Assembly (NCBI GenBank): GCA_964016885.1
Contig: OZ024756.1
Location: forward strand, 30,938,001 to 31,002,000
Direction of reading: 5' to 3'
DNA: 64,000 nt
Origin: Eledone cirrhosa
Taxonomy: Eukaryota
The translations under genes and the position numbers were made by a program. A model generated the notes under the pieces. That model was not told the origin of the DNA and searched no databases. It saw only the letters and a program-made list of their open reading frames with translations. Below are positions 2,212 to 59,052 of the stretch, piece after piece; positions within the stretch are counted from its first letter, which is position 1, and the number at the start of each line of letters is the position of its first letter.

Positions 2212-2269
2212 ATACCTGATGATATCACCGGATTCATATGGAACCCGGTCATTGAAATGATCATAGTAT
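2212..2269 (+). ncRNA. Minimal type I hammerhead ribozyme motif
   Basis: atac-CTGATGA(2216-2222)-imperfect hairpin (accgg..ccggt)-GAAA(2254-2257)-T-GATC-A-TA-gtat, then AATAAA at 2270. Confidence 0.65.
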
Positions 2270-2652
2270 AATAAACCTTTCAAGGATTTACACCAGTCCA
2301 GCCTCCTGTTATTTTATTTTATTTATATATATATATATATATATATATATATATATATATATATATATATATATATAATAAATATATATGCATATACATA
2401 TATATATATATTTGTTTTGCACACCTCTCTCTTGTTTAAATATATATTTATTAATATATATATATATATATATATATATATATATATATATATATATATA
2501 TATATATATATATATATATACATGGAAAGTTATATTTAAAATTGTTGGGTTACAACTAGTAAATATTTATAACTGATATAAAAGCACTCGACAAATATTT
2601 GGAGTATATTTACAATATTAAATAAATGGAAACTATATTTATAAAACCATAT

Positions 2653-2719
2653 TTATTTCATTATATATATTTCGGGGATATCATATTAACAATATGCTAT
2701 GCCTTCCTCAGACAAAATA
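2653..2719 (-). ncRNA. Minimal hammerhead motif (family D, inverted copy)
   Basis: Reverse complement of the 3284-3351 motif. Confidence 0.6.
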
Positions 2720-3283
2720 CAATATAAACAGTTTTATAGATAAATAGATTCGACATACCGTTATAACACCGACTTCCATTTGAAGAGGTTTAAGCTGGCA
2801 GTGAAAAAATTTTACACAGAGAGAAAGAAAGAGAGAAAAAAGAAAGAAAGACAGAAAATATATCTATATATATCTATATATATCTATATATATCTATATA
2901 TCTCCCTTACATTAATACTTGAGCTAAATAAATAAATAAATAAATAAATGTATCATTGATACATTTACTCAAAATGACCTCCCACTACCTAATTTTCTAT
3001 ATATATATGTATCTATCTCTATTTCCTCTCTCTCTCTATATATATATATGTCTTTCTGTTTCTTTACATGAAGTTCTTCGCTTTATCTATCTTTCCATCT
3101 CTCTATTTTGTTCCATGCATGTCTTCTTTTTCTTCCTTTTCTTCGTTTTCTGTCTTTCTCTCTTTTTTCTCTCTTTCTTTCTCTCTGTGTAAAATTTTTT
3201 CACTGCCAGCTTAAACCTCTTCCAATGGAAGTCGGTGTTATAACGGTATGTCGAATCTATTTATCTATAAAACTGGTTATATT

Positions 3284-3351
3284 TTATTTTGTCTGAGGAA
3301 GGCATAGCATATTGTTAATATGATATCCCCGAAATATATATAATGAAATAA
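3284..3351 (+). ncRNA. Minimal hammerhead motif (family D)
   Basis: ttattttgt-CTGAGGA-hairpin (catatt gtt aatatg)-GAAA-T-ATAT-A-TA-atgaaataa. Confidence 0.65.
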
Positions 3352-3430
3352 ATATGGTTTTATAAATATAGTTTCCATTTATTTAATATTGTATATATAT
3401 ATATATATATATATATATATATATATATAT

Positions 3431-3620
3431 AACGAAGGAAATGTGGTAAGGAACCAGTTGGACCATAACGGACCAAAGTACTCAATACTTAGGGTAGTAG
3501 AGTGGGTAATAGGAACAAGTAAGACCCCGACGGCTGAGCTCAAGCTGTTTAGACGGCTAATTCTGGACTGAATTAGCCGTCGAAGTCCAGAATTAGCCGT
3601 CGGGGTCTTACTTGTTCCTA
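3431..3620 (-). mobile_element. (TA)n-flanked fold-back element, family A (half-hammerhead)
   Basis: Same sequence as the copies at 14493, 27127, 38674, 58250 and 58482; palindromic head. Confidence 0.8.
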
Positions 3621-54525: not shown

Positions 54526-54964
54526 ATATATATATATATATATATATATATATATATATATATATATATATATATATATATATATATATATGTATGTATA
54601 TATATATATATATATATATATATATATATATATATATATATATATATATATATAATATATATATATATATATATATATTATATATGTATGTATATATATA
54701 TATATATATACATATATATATATATAATATATATATATATATATATATATATATATATGTATATATATATATATATATATATATATATATATATATATAT
54801 ATATATATATATATATATATATATATATATATATATATATATATATATATATTATATATATATATATATATATTTATATATATATATATATATATATATA
54901 TATATATATATATATATATATATATATATATATATATATATATATATATATATATATATATATA
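54526..54964. repeat. Long (TA)n tract, representative of dozens in the window
   Basis: Seen directly. Confidence 0.95.
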
Positions 54965-55320
54965 AGACACCATCCGCATCCACACCAGCCGCGTATCCAC
55001 ATGTATAATGGGATACAATAAAAAAAATGAATGAAGAAGAAAGAAAATGGAAATATATCTTCATTTTAGTAATTACATTACGCTGCTGTCACATACATTA
55101 ACATTGTTAAATATTCCTGCTTCGTGTAATAAAGATACGTAACTCTGTACCACTGTAAAGATTGGACGTTAGGAGATAATTGTAAATGTAGGGGAAGATA
55201 ATCACATTAATTTACCTGTTTTTGAAGTGTTCGTGTGTGGGCTAAACATGTAAAATGATATAACTTGATAGTATTTGTTCAATTACATATCTATGTGGGT
55301 TTTCTTTTAATATATATATT

Positions 55321-55497
55321 TATTGTTTCTATATATGACACAAGGCCAGCAATTATCCCAGTGCATTATTGGTACTTTATTTTATCGACCCCGTACGGAT
55401 GAAAGATAAAGTTAAACTCTGCAGGATTTGAACTCGTAAAGGGACGTAACTATGCTGGAAAGCATGGTGTCAGACCCTCTACCGATACTGCCAATCC
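55321..55497 (-). mobile_element. SINE family 1
   Basis: Reverse-complement match. Confidence 0.85.
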
Positions 55498-58249
55498 TAA
55501 CGTTAAAATACATGTACTTGTTAAGGAGGCGAAATTTTCATATCTGTTACAATGCTGGATAGAATGCTTTGCCATACTCGTTCCGACCCTCTGCTCGCTG
55601 AGTTTAAATCGCACCGAGGTCAGATTTGCCTTTCATCTTCTCGAGGCATGTAAAAAAATAGTACATCTCTAGTACTGGGGTCAATTCTTCCTCTATATCT
55701 CTGCTCTTTCTCATTTCCTCTCTCTCACTTTCTATCTTTCTCTCTCATTATGTTTATATTTCTTTGAAATCGCCTGATATCGCCATTAAAACCTGGATAT
55801 CCATGCAGGGGGGATGCAGGTCCATGCATTTCCCCGCAAGCCCTAGTAATCCACACGTGTGTGAATAATGTTGCAAGTGGGGCAAAACGCTAATTTAGGC
55901 AAAATACTAGTGAGTTAGAGAGATGATCAAAATTGATTACGTCGACCCCAGTATGTGACTGGTATAAAATTGTATCGGCACCGGAAAGAGATAAAACAAT
56001 GTTAGCTTCGCTGGTATTTAATCTCAGAACGAAATGAGCCGGAAAAATTACCGCAAGGCACTATCTCTGCCGTTCTAAAGATTCTGCCGAATCACTAAAT
56101 AATAAGAGTCATAATAATAGCAATAATAATAATAATAACAAAGTCATGCATCTAAAAATACCAAATGAGTGGGAAGACTGTAAATTAAGCAGCCATCAAA
56201 TTTCATTAAATCAGAATCTATTAAGGTGTGAGTGCGTGTATATGTTGGTTGAGTACACACACACACATATATATATATATATATATATATATATATATAT
56301 ATATATATATATATATATATATATATATATATATATATATATATATATATATATATACATATATATATATATGTAAATGTATATACAAATATTTATATAT
56401 AAATATAAATATATATATAATATATATGTGTATATATTTACGTATATGCACACATATATACTTTATATATATATATATATATACATATATATACATATAT
56501 ACATATATATATATATATATATATATATATATATATATATATATATATATATATATATATATATATATATATATATATATATATATATATATATATATAT
56601 ATAAATATATATATATATATATATATAAATGAAAGGTATAGAAAGTATTGTAGCAAGAAGCCAACAGTATTCCATAATATATAAGTGACTATAGCGTCAA
56701 AATGGGAAAATAGTTAACGTAAGATGTAGGAAAAATAATTCAAACTCAATATATATATATGTATATATATATATATATATATATATATATAAGTTGTAAT
56801 ACATACATACTTACATATATATATATATATATATACATATATATATATGTATATATATATATATATATATATATATATATATATATATATATATATATAT
56901 ATATATATATATATATATATATATATATATATGTATATATATATATGTATATATATATATATATATATGTAAGTATGTATGTATTACAACTTATATATAT
57001 ATATATATATATATATATATATATATATATATATATATATATATATATATATATATATGTATATATATACTGACAGTTGCGTGTGTGTGGTTGTATGCAT
57101 TTGCTAGCTAATACACCAAACATACTATTTGCAGTCAATCAACCGACGGAAATACCTGACAACATTAACAACAACAAAGATATTAATTTAATTTAAATAT
57201 CCACGTTTTCTTCTACTACTTAGAAAACATTATTACTTAATATCATTATTCTTATCATTGTTGTTATTCTTTCTCTGCTGCTTATTCTTCTTCTTCTTCT
57301 TATTATTATTATTATTATTATTATTATTATTATTATTATTATTATTATTATTATTATTATTATTATTGTTGTTGTTGTTATTATTATTATTATTATCCAA
57401 CTCCCATTTACTTTTTCTTTACATTTCCTTTACAACTTTCCCCTCGCCTCGTCATCCATCCATTTTATAATTCTTCGTTTCACTATCGTCATTTGTATAA
57501 GGCTTTCCCCCATAAGATTCAAGTCTGCGTGTATAACTTAAACGAGCAATGTTGAAGTGTTGAAGAATTTTTGGTGATATATAATTTCGTAATGCGCTAT
57601 GTCGTACGGTAATTAGTTCGCGTGAGACAATATATTAACCATGTCATATTCTATATCAGGTGAAATTGTATTAGAGCTCCAGAAATCTTGAACTTACAAT
57701 TATTGCTGTTAACCTCAAATCTGCAATTAATTTTATCAGTTCCATAGCAATTAACGTAAAATGCTCTCAAACATGTGTAATATATATGTAAGTAAATGCC
57801 TACGTTTATATATATTTATACATATATAAATATAAGCATAGGCATACATTCATATATACACACATATTATATGCACAGATACACAAACATCACCCACACA
57901 TATATATATATCTCCCTCATTCTCTCTCTCTCTATATATATATATATATATATATATACTAGTAGAGTTCCTGATACTTGGGGTAGTAGAGGGGGGGTAA
58001 TATATATATATATATATATATATATATATATATATATATTACCCACTCTATTACCCCCAAGTATCGAGAACTCTGTTGGGTAATGATCTAGCTGGATTTT
58101 GCGACACACTATCTGATATATATATATAAATACACATATATATATATATATATATATATATATATATATATATAAATACCTACATATATATATATATATA
58201 TACATATATATATATATATATATATATATATATATATATATATATATAT

Positions 58250-58675
58250 AACGAAGGAAATGTGGTAAGGAACCAGGTGGACCATAACGCACCAAAGTAC
58301 TCAATACTTGGGGTAGTAGAGTGGGAAATAGGAAAAAGTATGACTCCGACGGCAGGGCTCAAGCTTTTCGACGGTTATTTCTGTATTTCTGTCCAGAATT
58401 AGCCGTCGAAACGGCTTGAGCTCAGCCGTCGGGGTCTTACTGGTTCCTATATATATATATATATATATATATATATATATATAGGAAAAATATGACCCCG
58501 ACGGCAGAGCTCAAGCCGTTTTGACGGCTATTTCTGGACAGAAATAACCGTCGAAACGGCTTGAGCCCTGCCGTCGGAGTCATACTTTTTCCTATTTCCC
58601 ACTCTACTACCCTAAATAGTGAGTACTCTGGTGCGTTATGGTCCATCTGGTTCCTTACCACACAATTCCTTTGTT
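58250..58675. mobile_element. Two family A elements head-to-head around (TA)n
   Basis: 58250-58449 (-) and 58482-58675 (+) share variant bases (ggaaaaagtatgactcc). Confidence 0.85.
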
Positions 58676-58807
58676 ATATATATATATATATATATATATA
58701 TATATATATATATTTAAAAGTTAAACAAGGTTCAATGAATATATCAAAGACTGAGTTTTACAATAGATTGGAAGCACTCAACAAAAAAAGCTTTTCCAGA
58801 GTTATTA

Positions 58808-59052
58808 ATATTAATTCAAAATATTAACAAAATTCTTGTGATCAATTATATTTTATTATACATATTTCAGAGTTACTGAGTTAAGTTTAACAGTACGTCC
58901 TCATCACTACCATGACTGAATCTTAACCATCTACTATGTCATGCTATGTGATGCATCATCTTATTTTATCTGTACTCAGTACCTCTGAAATATGTATAAT
59001 AAAATATAATTGATCACAAGAATATCTATTTTGTTAATATTTTGAATTAATA
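58808..59052. repeat. Inverted repeat with an internally deleted hammerhead
   Basis: 58808-58881 mirrors 58974-59052; tattttat-CTG..GAAATATGTATA-ataaaata. Confidence 0.7.

What the first reader, a model, noticed from the sequence alone, without database searches (positions are those of the whole stretch)
2212..59006. A swarm of minimal hammerhead ribozyme cassettes in the islands between (TA)n tracts
Seen: near-complete stem I-CUGANGA-stem II-GAAA-palindromic stem III-UH-stem I motifs at 2212, 2653(-), 3284, 5161, 9501, 16660(-), 26981, 27531, 31181(-), 31449, 53408 and 53651. Degenerate motifs lie at 6185(-), about 14150(-), 24491(-) and 58962, and half motifs in family A and at about 12930, 33909 and 41220. 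They come from several families with unrelated stems. Most sit in short islands next to (TA)n and are followed by AATAAA. Established: PLE terminal repeats and retrozymes carry minimal type I hammerheads with palindromic stem III thought to cleave as dimers. Inference: a diverse population of non-coding, (TA)n-associated self-cleaving retroelements that repeat-masking would hide. No RT or GIY-YIG ORF is recognisable here.
Basis: partly seen in the sequence, partly recalled or inferred. Interest (0 to 1): 0.85.

Follow-up and report, generated by a model that had tools for sequence, protein, structure and literature searches.

The report
Hammerhead-tipped Penelope retrotransposon ends in microsatellites
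The scattered hammerhead-ribozyme motifs are mostly the broken-off 3' ends of Penelope-like retrotransposons, plus a few non-coding passenger elements, that sit in (TA)n microsatellites all over this animal genome (over 150,000 motif matches); this is a known kind of element at unusually large scale, and the motifs likely cut RNA as dimers, which is untested.

Summary
Observation largely confirmed; interpretation half right. Eight of the 12 'near-complete' motifs pass a hammerhead descriptor (7 hits vs 0.08 shuffled; 4 vs 0.17). Three more are decayed copies of intact families; 27531 and 24491 are not credible. They are mostly not a non-coding class. Six of 14 families in the window continue upstream, elsewhere in the genome, into RT/GIY-YIG ORFs of Penelope-like elements (PLEs): four Hydra-like, two Neptune-like. 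The window copies are 5'-truncated ends, often inverted-plus-direct, with (TA)n 3' of 18 of 21 sites (background 32%). Two families are non-coding: a ~345-bp tandem retrozyme and a ~1.9-kb hammerhead-to-hammerhead element. The window is typical: 55 motifs in 540 kb of arbitrary DNA (0-2 shuffled), and three exact patterns give 158,647 genome matches (controls 1,491). PLE hammerheads, (TA)n targeting and an octopus Hydra family are published. Not found in six literature searches: this scale, a conserved C·C mismatch in helix II, a U4A-core family (15,360 copies), and retrozyme arrays inserted in PLE geometry. Cleavage and expression are untested.

The parts
2167..2323 (+). Family F 3' end with hammerhead (2212-2269; helix III ATGATCAT); 3' end of a ~1.9-kb hammerhead-to-hammerhead element with no PLE ORF
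   Evidence: direct HHRs 1905 and 1852 nt apart in L414, L415
2521..2858 (-). Family A inverted pseudo-LTR with ~90-nt extension; hammerhead 2654-2719
   Evidence: 99.7% identical to the 5' pLTR and extension of the near-full-length PLE in L031
2873..3391 (+). Family A 5'-truncated 3' UTR ending at (TA)20; hammerhead 3283-3352
   Evidence: 97% identical to the 3' end of the RT+GIY-YIG element in L031
5090..5354 (+). Family A subfamily copy with extension; hammerhead 5161-5226
   Evidence: a near-identical hammerhead lies downstream of RT/EN in L233
6100..6235 (-). Family C2, decayed minimal hammerhead (helix III ACGT); 3' end of a Neptune-like PLE
   Evidence: L411: two direct HHRs 3455 nt apart around a 625-aa RT+GIY-YIG ORF
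9173..9680 (+). Family D, ~1.4 head-to-tail units of a ~340-352-bp non-coding retrozyme-like repeat; hammerhead ~9495-9545, helix I mutated in this copy
12619..12848 (-). Family M inverted copy with extension; hammerhead-shaped motif with CAGAAGA core and hairpin helix III at ~12712-12790
   Evidence: ORF upstream in L258 and L413
12849..12992 (+).
14020..14215 (-). Family K, U3-A8 core hammerhead with U16.1 mutated; 3' end of a Neptune-like PLE
   Evidence: (Pfam GIY-YIG E=4e-7 in L327)
16607..16764 (-). Family B copy, 60-nt helix II, helix III ACGCGCGT; parent not found
24330..24660 (-). Family H repeat with CTGATGA and GAAAC but no helix III; not confirmed as a hammerhead
26902..27056 (+). 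Family G 3' end; hammerhead 26981-27023
   Evidence: RT+EN directly upstream in L228
27479..27642 (+). Family I repeat with hammerhead-like remnants, no helix I; not credible as a ribozyme
31105..31318 (-). Family C copy, minimal hammerhead with A9>U; relative of C2 (76% over 79 nt), own parent not traced
31377..31641 (+). Family A subfamily copy with extension; helix I broken in this copy
33905..34012 (+). Family N, 5'-truncated inside the motif (GAAACGTC half only)
41190..41250 (-). Family M, 5'-truncated inside the motif
53325..53508 (+). Family E 3' end cut at a truncation hotspot; intact hammerhead 53408-53463
53567..53777 (+). Family B: inverted extension joined to a direct copy; core CCGACGA (U4C)
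58712..59050 (.). Family J inverted (58712-58905, C3 lost) plus direct (internally deleted) pair; relatives have a full hammerhead; parent not traced

Best explanation
The motifs are hammerhead-shaped sequences at the 3' ends of many Penelope-like retrotransposon (PLE) families and a few non-coding derivatives, left next to (TA)n tracts as 5'-truncated and often inverted-plus-direct copies; the elements' own GIY-YIG nuclease likely nicks (TA)n, their reverse transcriptase likely copies the RNA from its 3' end, and the hammerheads would cut tandem precursor RNA as dimers. Shown: the sequence link to RT/GIY-YIG ORFs, the truncation pattern, the inverted geometry, the (TA)n bias, helix covariation and genome-wide copy numbers. 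Inferred from published PLE biology: target-primed reverse transcription and nuclease specificity for (TA)n. Inferred from anatomy: a no-loop palindromic helix III cannot form in one copy, so two copies would pair. Copies keep 40-60 or 130-160 nt beyond the cleavage site, so the template was likely a read-through tandem or a circle whose 3' hammerhead was uncut. The non-coding families (D, F, 311-bp arrays) likely borrow the PLE enzymes. Most genomic copies, being lone and truncated, are probably inert.
For: Window 2895-3432 is 97% and 2518-2858(-) 99.7% identical to the two ends of a near-full-length element in L031 whose ORF pieces carry RWR, DKT, YRDD, CxCx5C, YVG, CxxC and CxH; these match the Hydra clade definition (PMC8557442 section 11). 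Its RT has 25 homologs at 31-43% identity. G, E and M continue into ORFs of the same type. K and C2 continue into ORFs with a CX2-5CxxC linker (Pfam GIY-YIG E=4e-7 for K). L411 holds two direct C-type hammerheads around a 625-aa ORF. Upstream lengths vary continuously in copies not selected by length. Helix I is 96.5% paired across 161 copies vs 75.7% with shuffled partners. Helix II positions 2-3 and 5-9 are paired in 78-89 of 92 distinct sequences with several pair types. All 100 listed matches of a pattern with two free bases in helix III are palindromic. RNAcofold gives swapped helix I/III dimers for E and D, 8-10 kcal/mol below two monomers. Genome counts: 80,205 vs 149 control, 63,082 vs 1,342, 15,360 vs 0.
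Against: No cleavage assay exists here, and Cervera 2014 found low in vitro activity for PLE minimal hammerheads. Coding parents were not found for B (a sister family extends over 1.8 kb with no ORF) and not sought by walking for C, H, I, J or N. Pfam gives no hit on the Hydra-like ORF pieces and only sub-threshold hits on C2, so clade calls rest on motifs, not on a tree. The parent copies examined are broken by frameshifts or stops. For A, G and M, RNAcofold did not return the active dimer fold. B (U4C, or A6U in a sister family) and M (U4A in 23 of 23 copies) deviate from the catalytic core. The partner-shuffle control does not remove relatedness among copies.
Confidence: 0.88

Rival explanations
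1. The motifs mainly mark an independent class of short, non-coding, SINE-like self-cleaving elements with fixed ends.
For: Top-scoring copies of E appeared as 184-bp (TA)n-flanked units in all readable loci (28 of 30). D, F and the 311-bp arrays lack ORFs. B, C, H, I, J and N have no traced parent.
Against: The fixed-length look of E was a ranking bias. Of 40 consecutive 3'-end hits, 16 extend past the hotspot, 17 start at or after it and 7 are shorter; three run contiguously into a GIY-YIG ORF. K and C2 also looked short until walked.
Confidence: 0.12
2. The hammerheads are vestigial or parasitic passengers: PLE-derived but not needed, or no longer catalytic, in several families.
For: M spread to at least 15,360 copies with U4A. 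B mostly has U4C or A6U. I lost helix I. Craig 2021 notes that Naiads thrive without canonical hammerheads. U4C lowers activity in vitro (PMC3088659 passage).
Against: Core and helices are kept, with compensatory changes, across many unrelated families, which implies selection on the master elements. M retains helices I, II and a hairpin helix III.
Confidence: 0.25
3. Chance matches in AT-rich, microsatellite-rich DNA.
For: One window hit (28382) and a few of the 55 sample hits look accidental; 27531 and 24491 fail as hammerheads.
Against: 47- to 540-fold excess over reversed-pattern controls; 55 vs 0-2 in shuffles; motifs recur in repeat families at a fixed place.
Confidence: 0.01

Closest known systems
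Minimal hammerheads in PLE pseudo-LTRs (Cervera & de la Pena 2014, PMC4209133; parts 1-2 of 4 read)
   Same: Type I motif, long helix II, short helix I, palindromic helix III, U3-A8 variant, many families per genome, mostly single motifs from truncated PLEs, opposite-strand pairs 100-700 bp apart.
   Different: Scale: at least 158,647 exact-pattern matches here vs about 4,000 (coelacanth) and 9,000 (Xenopus), with different descriptors. The dominant subtype here has a C·C mismatch at helix II position 4 and often no G10.1-C11.1 pair. M has A4 and a hairpin helix III.
Hydra-clade PLEs (Craig et al. 2021, PMC8557442; section 11, passages and supplement rows read; Hydra-1_Obim listed, 2507 bp, (TA)n)
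   Same: C-terminal GIY-YIG, RW(K/R) and DKT motifs, CxCx5C linker, CxxC and CxH near the end, (TA)n targeting, hammerheads present (families A, E, M; G partly).
   Different: Reported as a small number of short (<3 kb) families; here several families of about 4 kb with 1-1.5 kb 3' UTRs and tens of thousands of ends. The extension is 85-110 nt vs the 30-40-bp tail described for PLE insertions.
Neptune-clade PLEs
   Same: C-terminal GIY-YIG with CX2-5CxxC linker, microsatellite targeting (families K, C2).
   Different: No tree was built; Craig 2021 says Neptune and Naiad endonucleases are hard to separate, so the call rests on domain order.
Non-LTR retrozymes (Cervera & de la Pena 2020, PMC7229834, passages; Li et al. 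2026, bioRxiv 10.64898/2026.07.22.740005, part 1 of 5 and passages)
   Same: Non-coding tandem units of 310-480 bp with one type I hammerhead each (D; arrays in L249, L420, L421).
   Different: Here the arrays lie as an inverted block plus a direct block, between (TA)n tracts in L420, which is PLE insertion geometry. F is a ~1.9-kb non-coding unit, much longer than described retrozymes. Circular RNA was not tested.

Membership tests
Type I hammerhead ribozyme (PLE minimal type) | Core CUGANGA ... GAAA ... UH in type I order | tested here: met
   Met in A, C, C2, D, E, F, G, J families; U3-A8 variant in K. Deviates in B (U4C/A6U), M (U4A), I (A14C).
Type I hammerhead ribozyme (PLE minimal type) | Helices I and II with compensatory changes | tested here: met
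   controls do not remove relatedness
Type I hammerhead ribozyme (PLE minimal type) | Palindromic helix III suited to dimer formation | tested here: met
   100 of 100 listed matches palindromic; swapped dimer predicted for E and D but not A, G, M; M has a hairpin instead
Type I hammerhead ribozyme (PLE minimal type) | Site-specific self-cleavage | not testable with these tools
   needs an in vitro assay
Type I hammerhead ribozyme (PLE minimal type) | Match to an Rfam hammerhead model | tested here: not met
   0 matches at gathering score; none among the 150 listed of 598 weak matches
EN+ Penelope-like element | Single RT + GIY-YIG ORF upstream of the hammerhead | tested here: met
   A, G, M, K, C2 show RT and EN, E shows the contiguous EN half; not met for D and F; not found for B; not tested for C, H, I, J, N
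EN+ Penelope-like element | Pseudo-LTRs, 5' truncation, adjacent inverted copy, one-sided extension | tested here: met
   L031, L411, L414, L415; window 2521-3391, 12619-12992, 58712-59050
EN+ Penelope-like element | RT groups with PLEs in a tree | not tested
   no clade-labelled references were fetched; homologs are unnamed or uninformatively named
Hydra clade | RWK-like and DKT motifs in RT | tested here: met
   RWR and DKT in A; RWC and DKT in an M-type RT piece in L422, DKT in L413
Hydra clade | CxCx5C linker; CxxC and CxH around the conserved E and N | tested here: met
   A, E, M; the G copy examined keeps only CxC
Hydra clade | Insertion into (TA)n | tested here: met
Hydra clade | Short element (<3 kb) | tested here: not met
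   A is about 3.9 kb hammerhead to hammerhead in L031; the paper says 'generally short'
Neptune clade | C-terminal EN with CX2-5CxxC linker | tested here: met
   K and C2
Neptune clade | CCHH motif and placement in an RT tree | not tested
   Cys and His residues are visible but were not mapped against references
Non-LTR retrozyme | Non-coding head-to-tail units of a few hundred bp, one hammerhead each | tested here: met
   D and 311-bp arrays
Non-LTR retrozyme | Expressed as circular RNA | not testable with these tools
   needs northern blot or divergent RT-PCR

The most novel reading that the evidence does not exclude
This genome carries one of the densest hammerhead loads known (about 50-100 per Mb), driven by Hydra-like PLEs whose ribozyme is a distinct subtype with a conserved C·C mismatch in helix II. 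One family amplified to over 15,000 copies with an active U4A, monomer-type variant. PLE enzymes copy circular hammerhead-processed RNAs, starting at two fixed points past the cleavage site with a shared TYGAGYRCT signal, and in the same way paste tandem retrozyme arrays into (TA)n. This would be direct structural evidence that PLEs mobilise animal retrozymes.
Probability: 0.3. Interest if true: 0.65.

Novelty: new member of a known kind. Interest (0 to 1): 0.4.

Why it matters
The role of hammerheads in PLE transposition and the identity of the enzyme that moves animal retrozymes are open questions (stated in PMC8557442, PMC7229834 and the 2026 preprint). This genome offers young, 97-99% identical families with coding parents, non-coding dependants and natural core variants side by side, so both questions can be tested with natural sequences. 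It also explains much of the short unannotated sequence between (TA)n tracts as PLE debris, which matters for repeat annotation. A 2026 Octopus vulgaris repeat annotation has no occurrence of 'ribozyme', 'Hydra' or 'Neptune' in its main text. The basic phenomenon is already published.

Tried and rejected
Rfam: no match at gathering score; the E-value scan listed only microsatellite-driven miRNA noise. The repeat finder was swamped by (TA)n, so masked self-BLAST was used. I first read E as a fixed 184-bp SINE-like element and rejected that after sampling 3'-end hits unselected for length. Head-to-tail E dimers with a 0-30 nt gap: 0 matches. Pfam did not recognise the Hydra-like ORF pieces. No PLE ORF was found for F in six fetched stretches or in 20 loci. 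No parent was found for B's sister family in 20 loci and four 10-kb stretches; other PLE fragments there were not shown to be contiguous. Expression: no RNA holder listed, which is no evidence either way; laying contigs of three runs of unrecorded kind showed E-like sequence in two of three and says nothing on expression. No earlier scan notes existed. The idea that the AUAUAUAU helix III primes directly on (TA)n after cleavage was set aside, because copies extend 40-160 nt beyond the cleavage site. Supplementary figures and alignments of Cervera 2014 and Craig 2021 (File S2) were not viewed and may already show the C·C mismatch or position-4 variants. Lunse et al. 2017 (recalled) did not appear in the searches.

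
Full report
Setting. The window is 31% GC and about 10% (TA)n. It lies at G000:C17:30938001-31002000 in a 3.0-Gb assembly. The repeat content and an Argonauta hians homolog of the element's RT suggest an octopod; this is an inference only.

Observation. A type I hammerhead descriptor gave 3 hits (strict) or 7 hits (helix II base relaxed) against 0.03 and 0.08 in 60 shuffles that keep simple repeats in place. 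A PLE-style descriptor allowing an extra base after A9, U4C and U3-A8 gave 4 against 0.17 in 30 shuffles. 9501, 31181 and 31449 are damaged copies of intact families. 27531 has no helix I and its family reads GACA. Of the four degenerate sites, 6185, 14150 and 58962 are real family members and 24491 is unconfirmed. 12930 and 41220 belong to family M, which has a complete hammerhead shape: helix I AGTTT/AAACT, core CAGAAGA, a short helix II and a 5-bp hairpin helix III. Over 21 sites, (TA)6+ lies within 200 nt on the 3' side in 18 (background 32%) and AATAAA follows in 13 (background 8%). Rfam finds nothing.

What the motifs belong to. Masked self-BLAST and own-genome searches sorted the sites into 14 families. 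Family A: a copy on C1 (L031) has a hammerhead, a ~90-nt extension, a broken ORF with RT (YRDD) and GIY-YIG, a 1.5-kb 3' UTR, a second hammerhead and (TA)n. Window 2895-3432 is 97% identical to its 3' end and 2518-2858(-) is 99.7% identical to its 5' pseudo-LTR plus extension. So 2521-3391 is a truncated PLE insertion with an adjacent inverted copy, the arrangement described in Craig 2021 (PMC8557442, passages). Family G has RT+EN ending about 110 nt upstream (L174, L228). Family E first looked like a fixed 184-bp element, but those hits were ranked by similarity to a query of that length. Of 40 consecutive exact 3'-end hits, out of 3,313 in the genome, 16 extend past the truncation hotspot, 17 start at or after it and 7 are shorter; L290, L293 and L307 run contiguously into a GIY-YIG ORF. 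M links to EN and RT in L258 and L413. K and C2 link to ORFs with a CX2-5CxxC linker; L411 holds a 625-aa RT+EN ORF between two direct hammerheads 3,455 nt apart. A, E and M carry the Hydra-clade motifs listed in section 11 of Craig 2021; its supplement already lists Hydra-1_Obim with (TA)n targeting. No tree was built, and Pfam does not recognise the Hydra-like pieces.

Non-coding members. D is a ~340-352-bp head-to-tail unit with a near-canonical hammerhead (6-bp helix I, 4-bp helix II); the window holds about 1.4 units. F runs about 1.9 kb from hammerhead to hammerhead with no PLE ORF and with an inverted copy beside it (L414, L415). Outside the window, 311-bp arrays occur as 5 inverted plus 9 direct units between (TA)n tracts (L420), and 6 plus 8 in L421. 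That is PLE geometry and suggests PLE enzymes move them. B has no traced parent; C, H, I, J and N were not walked.

Structure. Among 161 distinct loci of the ATATRTAT helix III class, helix I is 96.5% paired against 75.7% with shuffled partners. Among 92 distinct helix II sequences, positions 2-3 and 5-9 pair in 78-89, position 1 in 72, and position 4 in only 2: it is C·C in 74 and C·U in 13, across families with unrelated stems. These counts include related copies. Copies end 40-60 nt or 130-160 nt after the cleavage site, and 40 of 47 long ends contain TYGAGYRCT (background 0.1 per kb). RNAcofold predicts helix I/III-swapped dimers for E and D but not for A, G or M. M has A4 in 23 of 23 copies; B has mostly CCGACGA and a sister family CCGTCGA. 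U4C is reported to lower activity in vitro (PMC3088659, passage).

Scale. In 54 arbitrary 10-kb stretches the descriptor found 55 motifs in 539.6 kb, 11 of them from one array, against 0-2 in four shuffles; 36 of 55 lie within 200 nt of (TA)6+ against 28% background. The window's 0.063/kb is therefore ordinary. Published figures are about 4,000 and 9,000 minimal motifs in coelacanth and Xenopus (PMC4209133, parts 1-2), and over 6,000 in a coral and up to 120,000 retrozymes in axolotl (PMC7229834, passages); descriptors differ.

Mechanism. Shown: coding parents for six families, variable 5' truncation, inverted-plus-direct insertions, (TA)n at the 3' ends, conserved folds. Inferred from PLE literature: the Cys-linker GIY-YIG nicks (TA)n and the RT copies from the RNA's 3' end. 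Inferred from anatomy: palindromic helix III makes cleavage conditional on a second copy, as in a tandem precursor. Because copies keep sequence past the cleavage site, the template was a read-through tandem or a circle, as Cervera 2014 proposed. Lone truncated copies are probably inert. The main rival for part of the set is that some hammerheads (B, M, I) are vestigial.

Novelty. Six searches show that PLE hammerheads, their scatter as truncated singles and inverted pairs, (TA)n targeting, an octopus Hydra family and a PLE origin for retrozymes are in print. I did not find the density, the C·C signature, the U4A family, the 85-110-nt extension motif or PLE-shaped retrozyme arrays in what I read. 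I did not view supplementary alignments, and subscription papers are not searched. Verdict: real, well explained, new members of known kinds; interest 0.4.

Noticed in passing
window 3432-3618, 14495-14694, 27128-27268, 38676-38865, 53276-53323, 58251-58674: High-copy ~190-bp family with an internal palindrome, inserted in (TA)n, often as inverted pairs, with no hammerhead seen; 17 hits in 540 kb of arbitrary DNA. Possibly the end of another (TA)n-targeting element.
   Followed up: no
window 6463-6641, 17058-17251, 20344-20534, 26036-26439, 29834-29985, 54115-54297, 55311-55497, 60319-60511 and others: ~180-bp SINE-like family, 79 hits in 540 kb; no hammerhead seen.
   Followed up: no
window 45917-46931(-) and 48047-48548(+): Fragments of a non-LTR retrotransposon 3' end (weak zf-RVT hit) as a 430-500-bp inverted pair; a near-identical ORF piece lies in L225.
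   Followed up: partly
L420 (C1:1238000-1246999), L421 (C1:5387000-5394999), L249; C1:5738327-5750934: Tandem retrozyme arrays of 310-311, 466 and ~484 bp; some are an inverted block plus a direct block, flanked by (TA)n in L420.
   Followed up: partly
extensions of families A, B, E, F, H, J and an E sister family: Shared TYGAGYRCT motif, often preceded by WAYTCC, in the 85-110-nt extension of otherwise unrelated families; candidate promoter or RT-recognition signal.
   Followed up: partly
L151, L013, L365-L384: Sister family of B with core CCGTCGA and a CA/TG-rich upstream region over 1.8 kb; could be a Naiad-type 3' UTR, since Craig 2021 lists 'HHR_half_core' for cephalopod Naiads.
   Followed up: partly
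window 14303-14465, 49539-49788, 40354-41025, 7144-8404: Other inverted-repeat elements without a hammerhead; 40354-41025 has terminal inverted repeats around a transposase-like fragment.
   Followed up: no
window 29559-29838: 25-bp minisatellite, 11 copies.
   Followed up: no
L005, L060, L096, L227, L240, L263, L277: E sister family with compensatory helix II changes relative to E; variable length, inverted-plus-direct, parent ORF not traced.
   Followed up: partly
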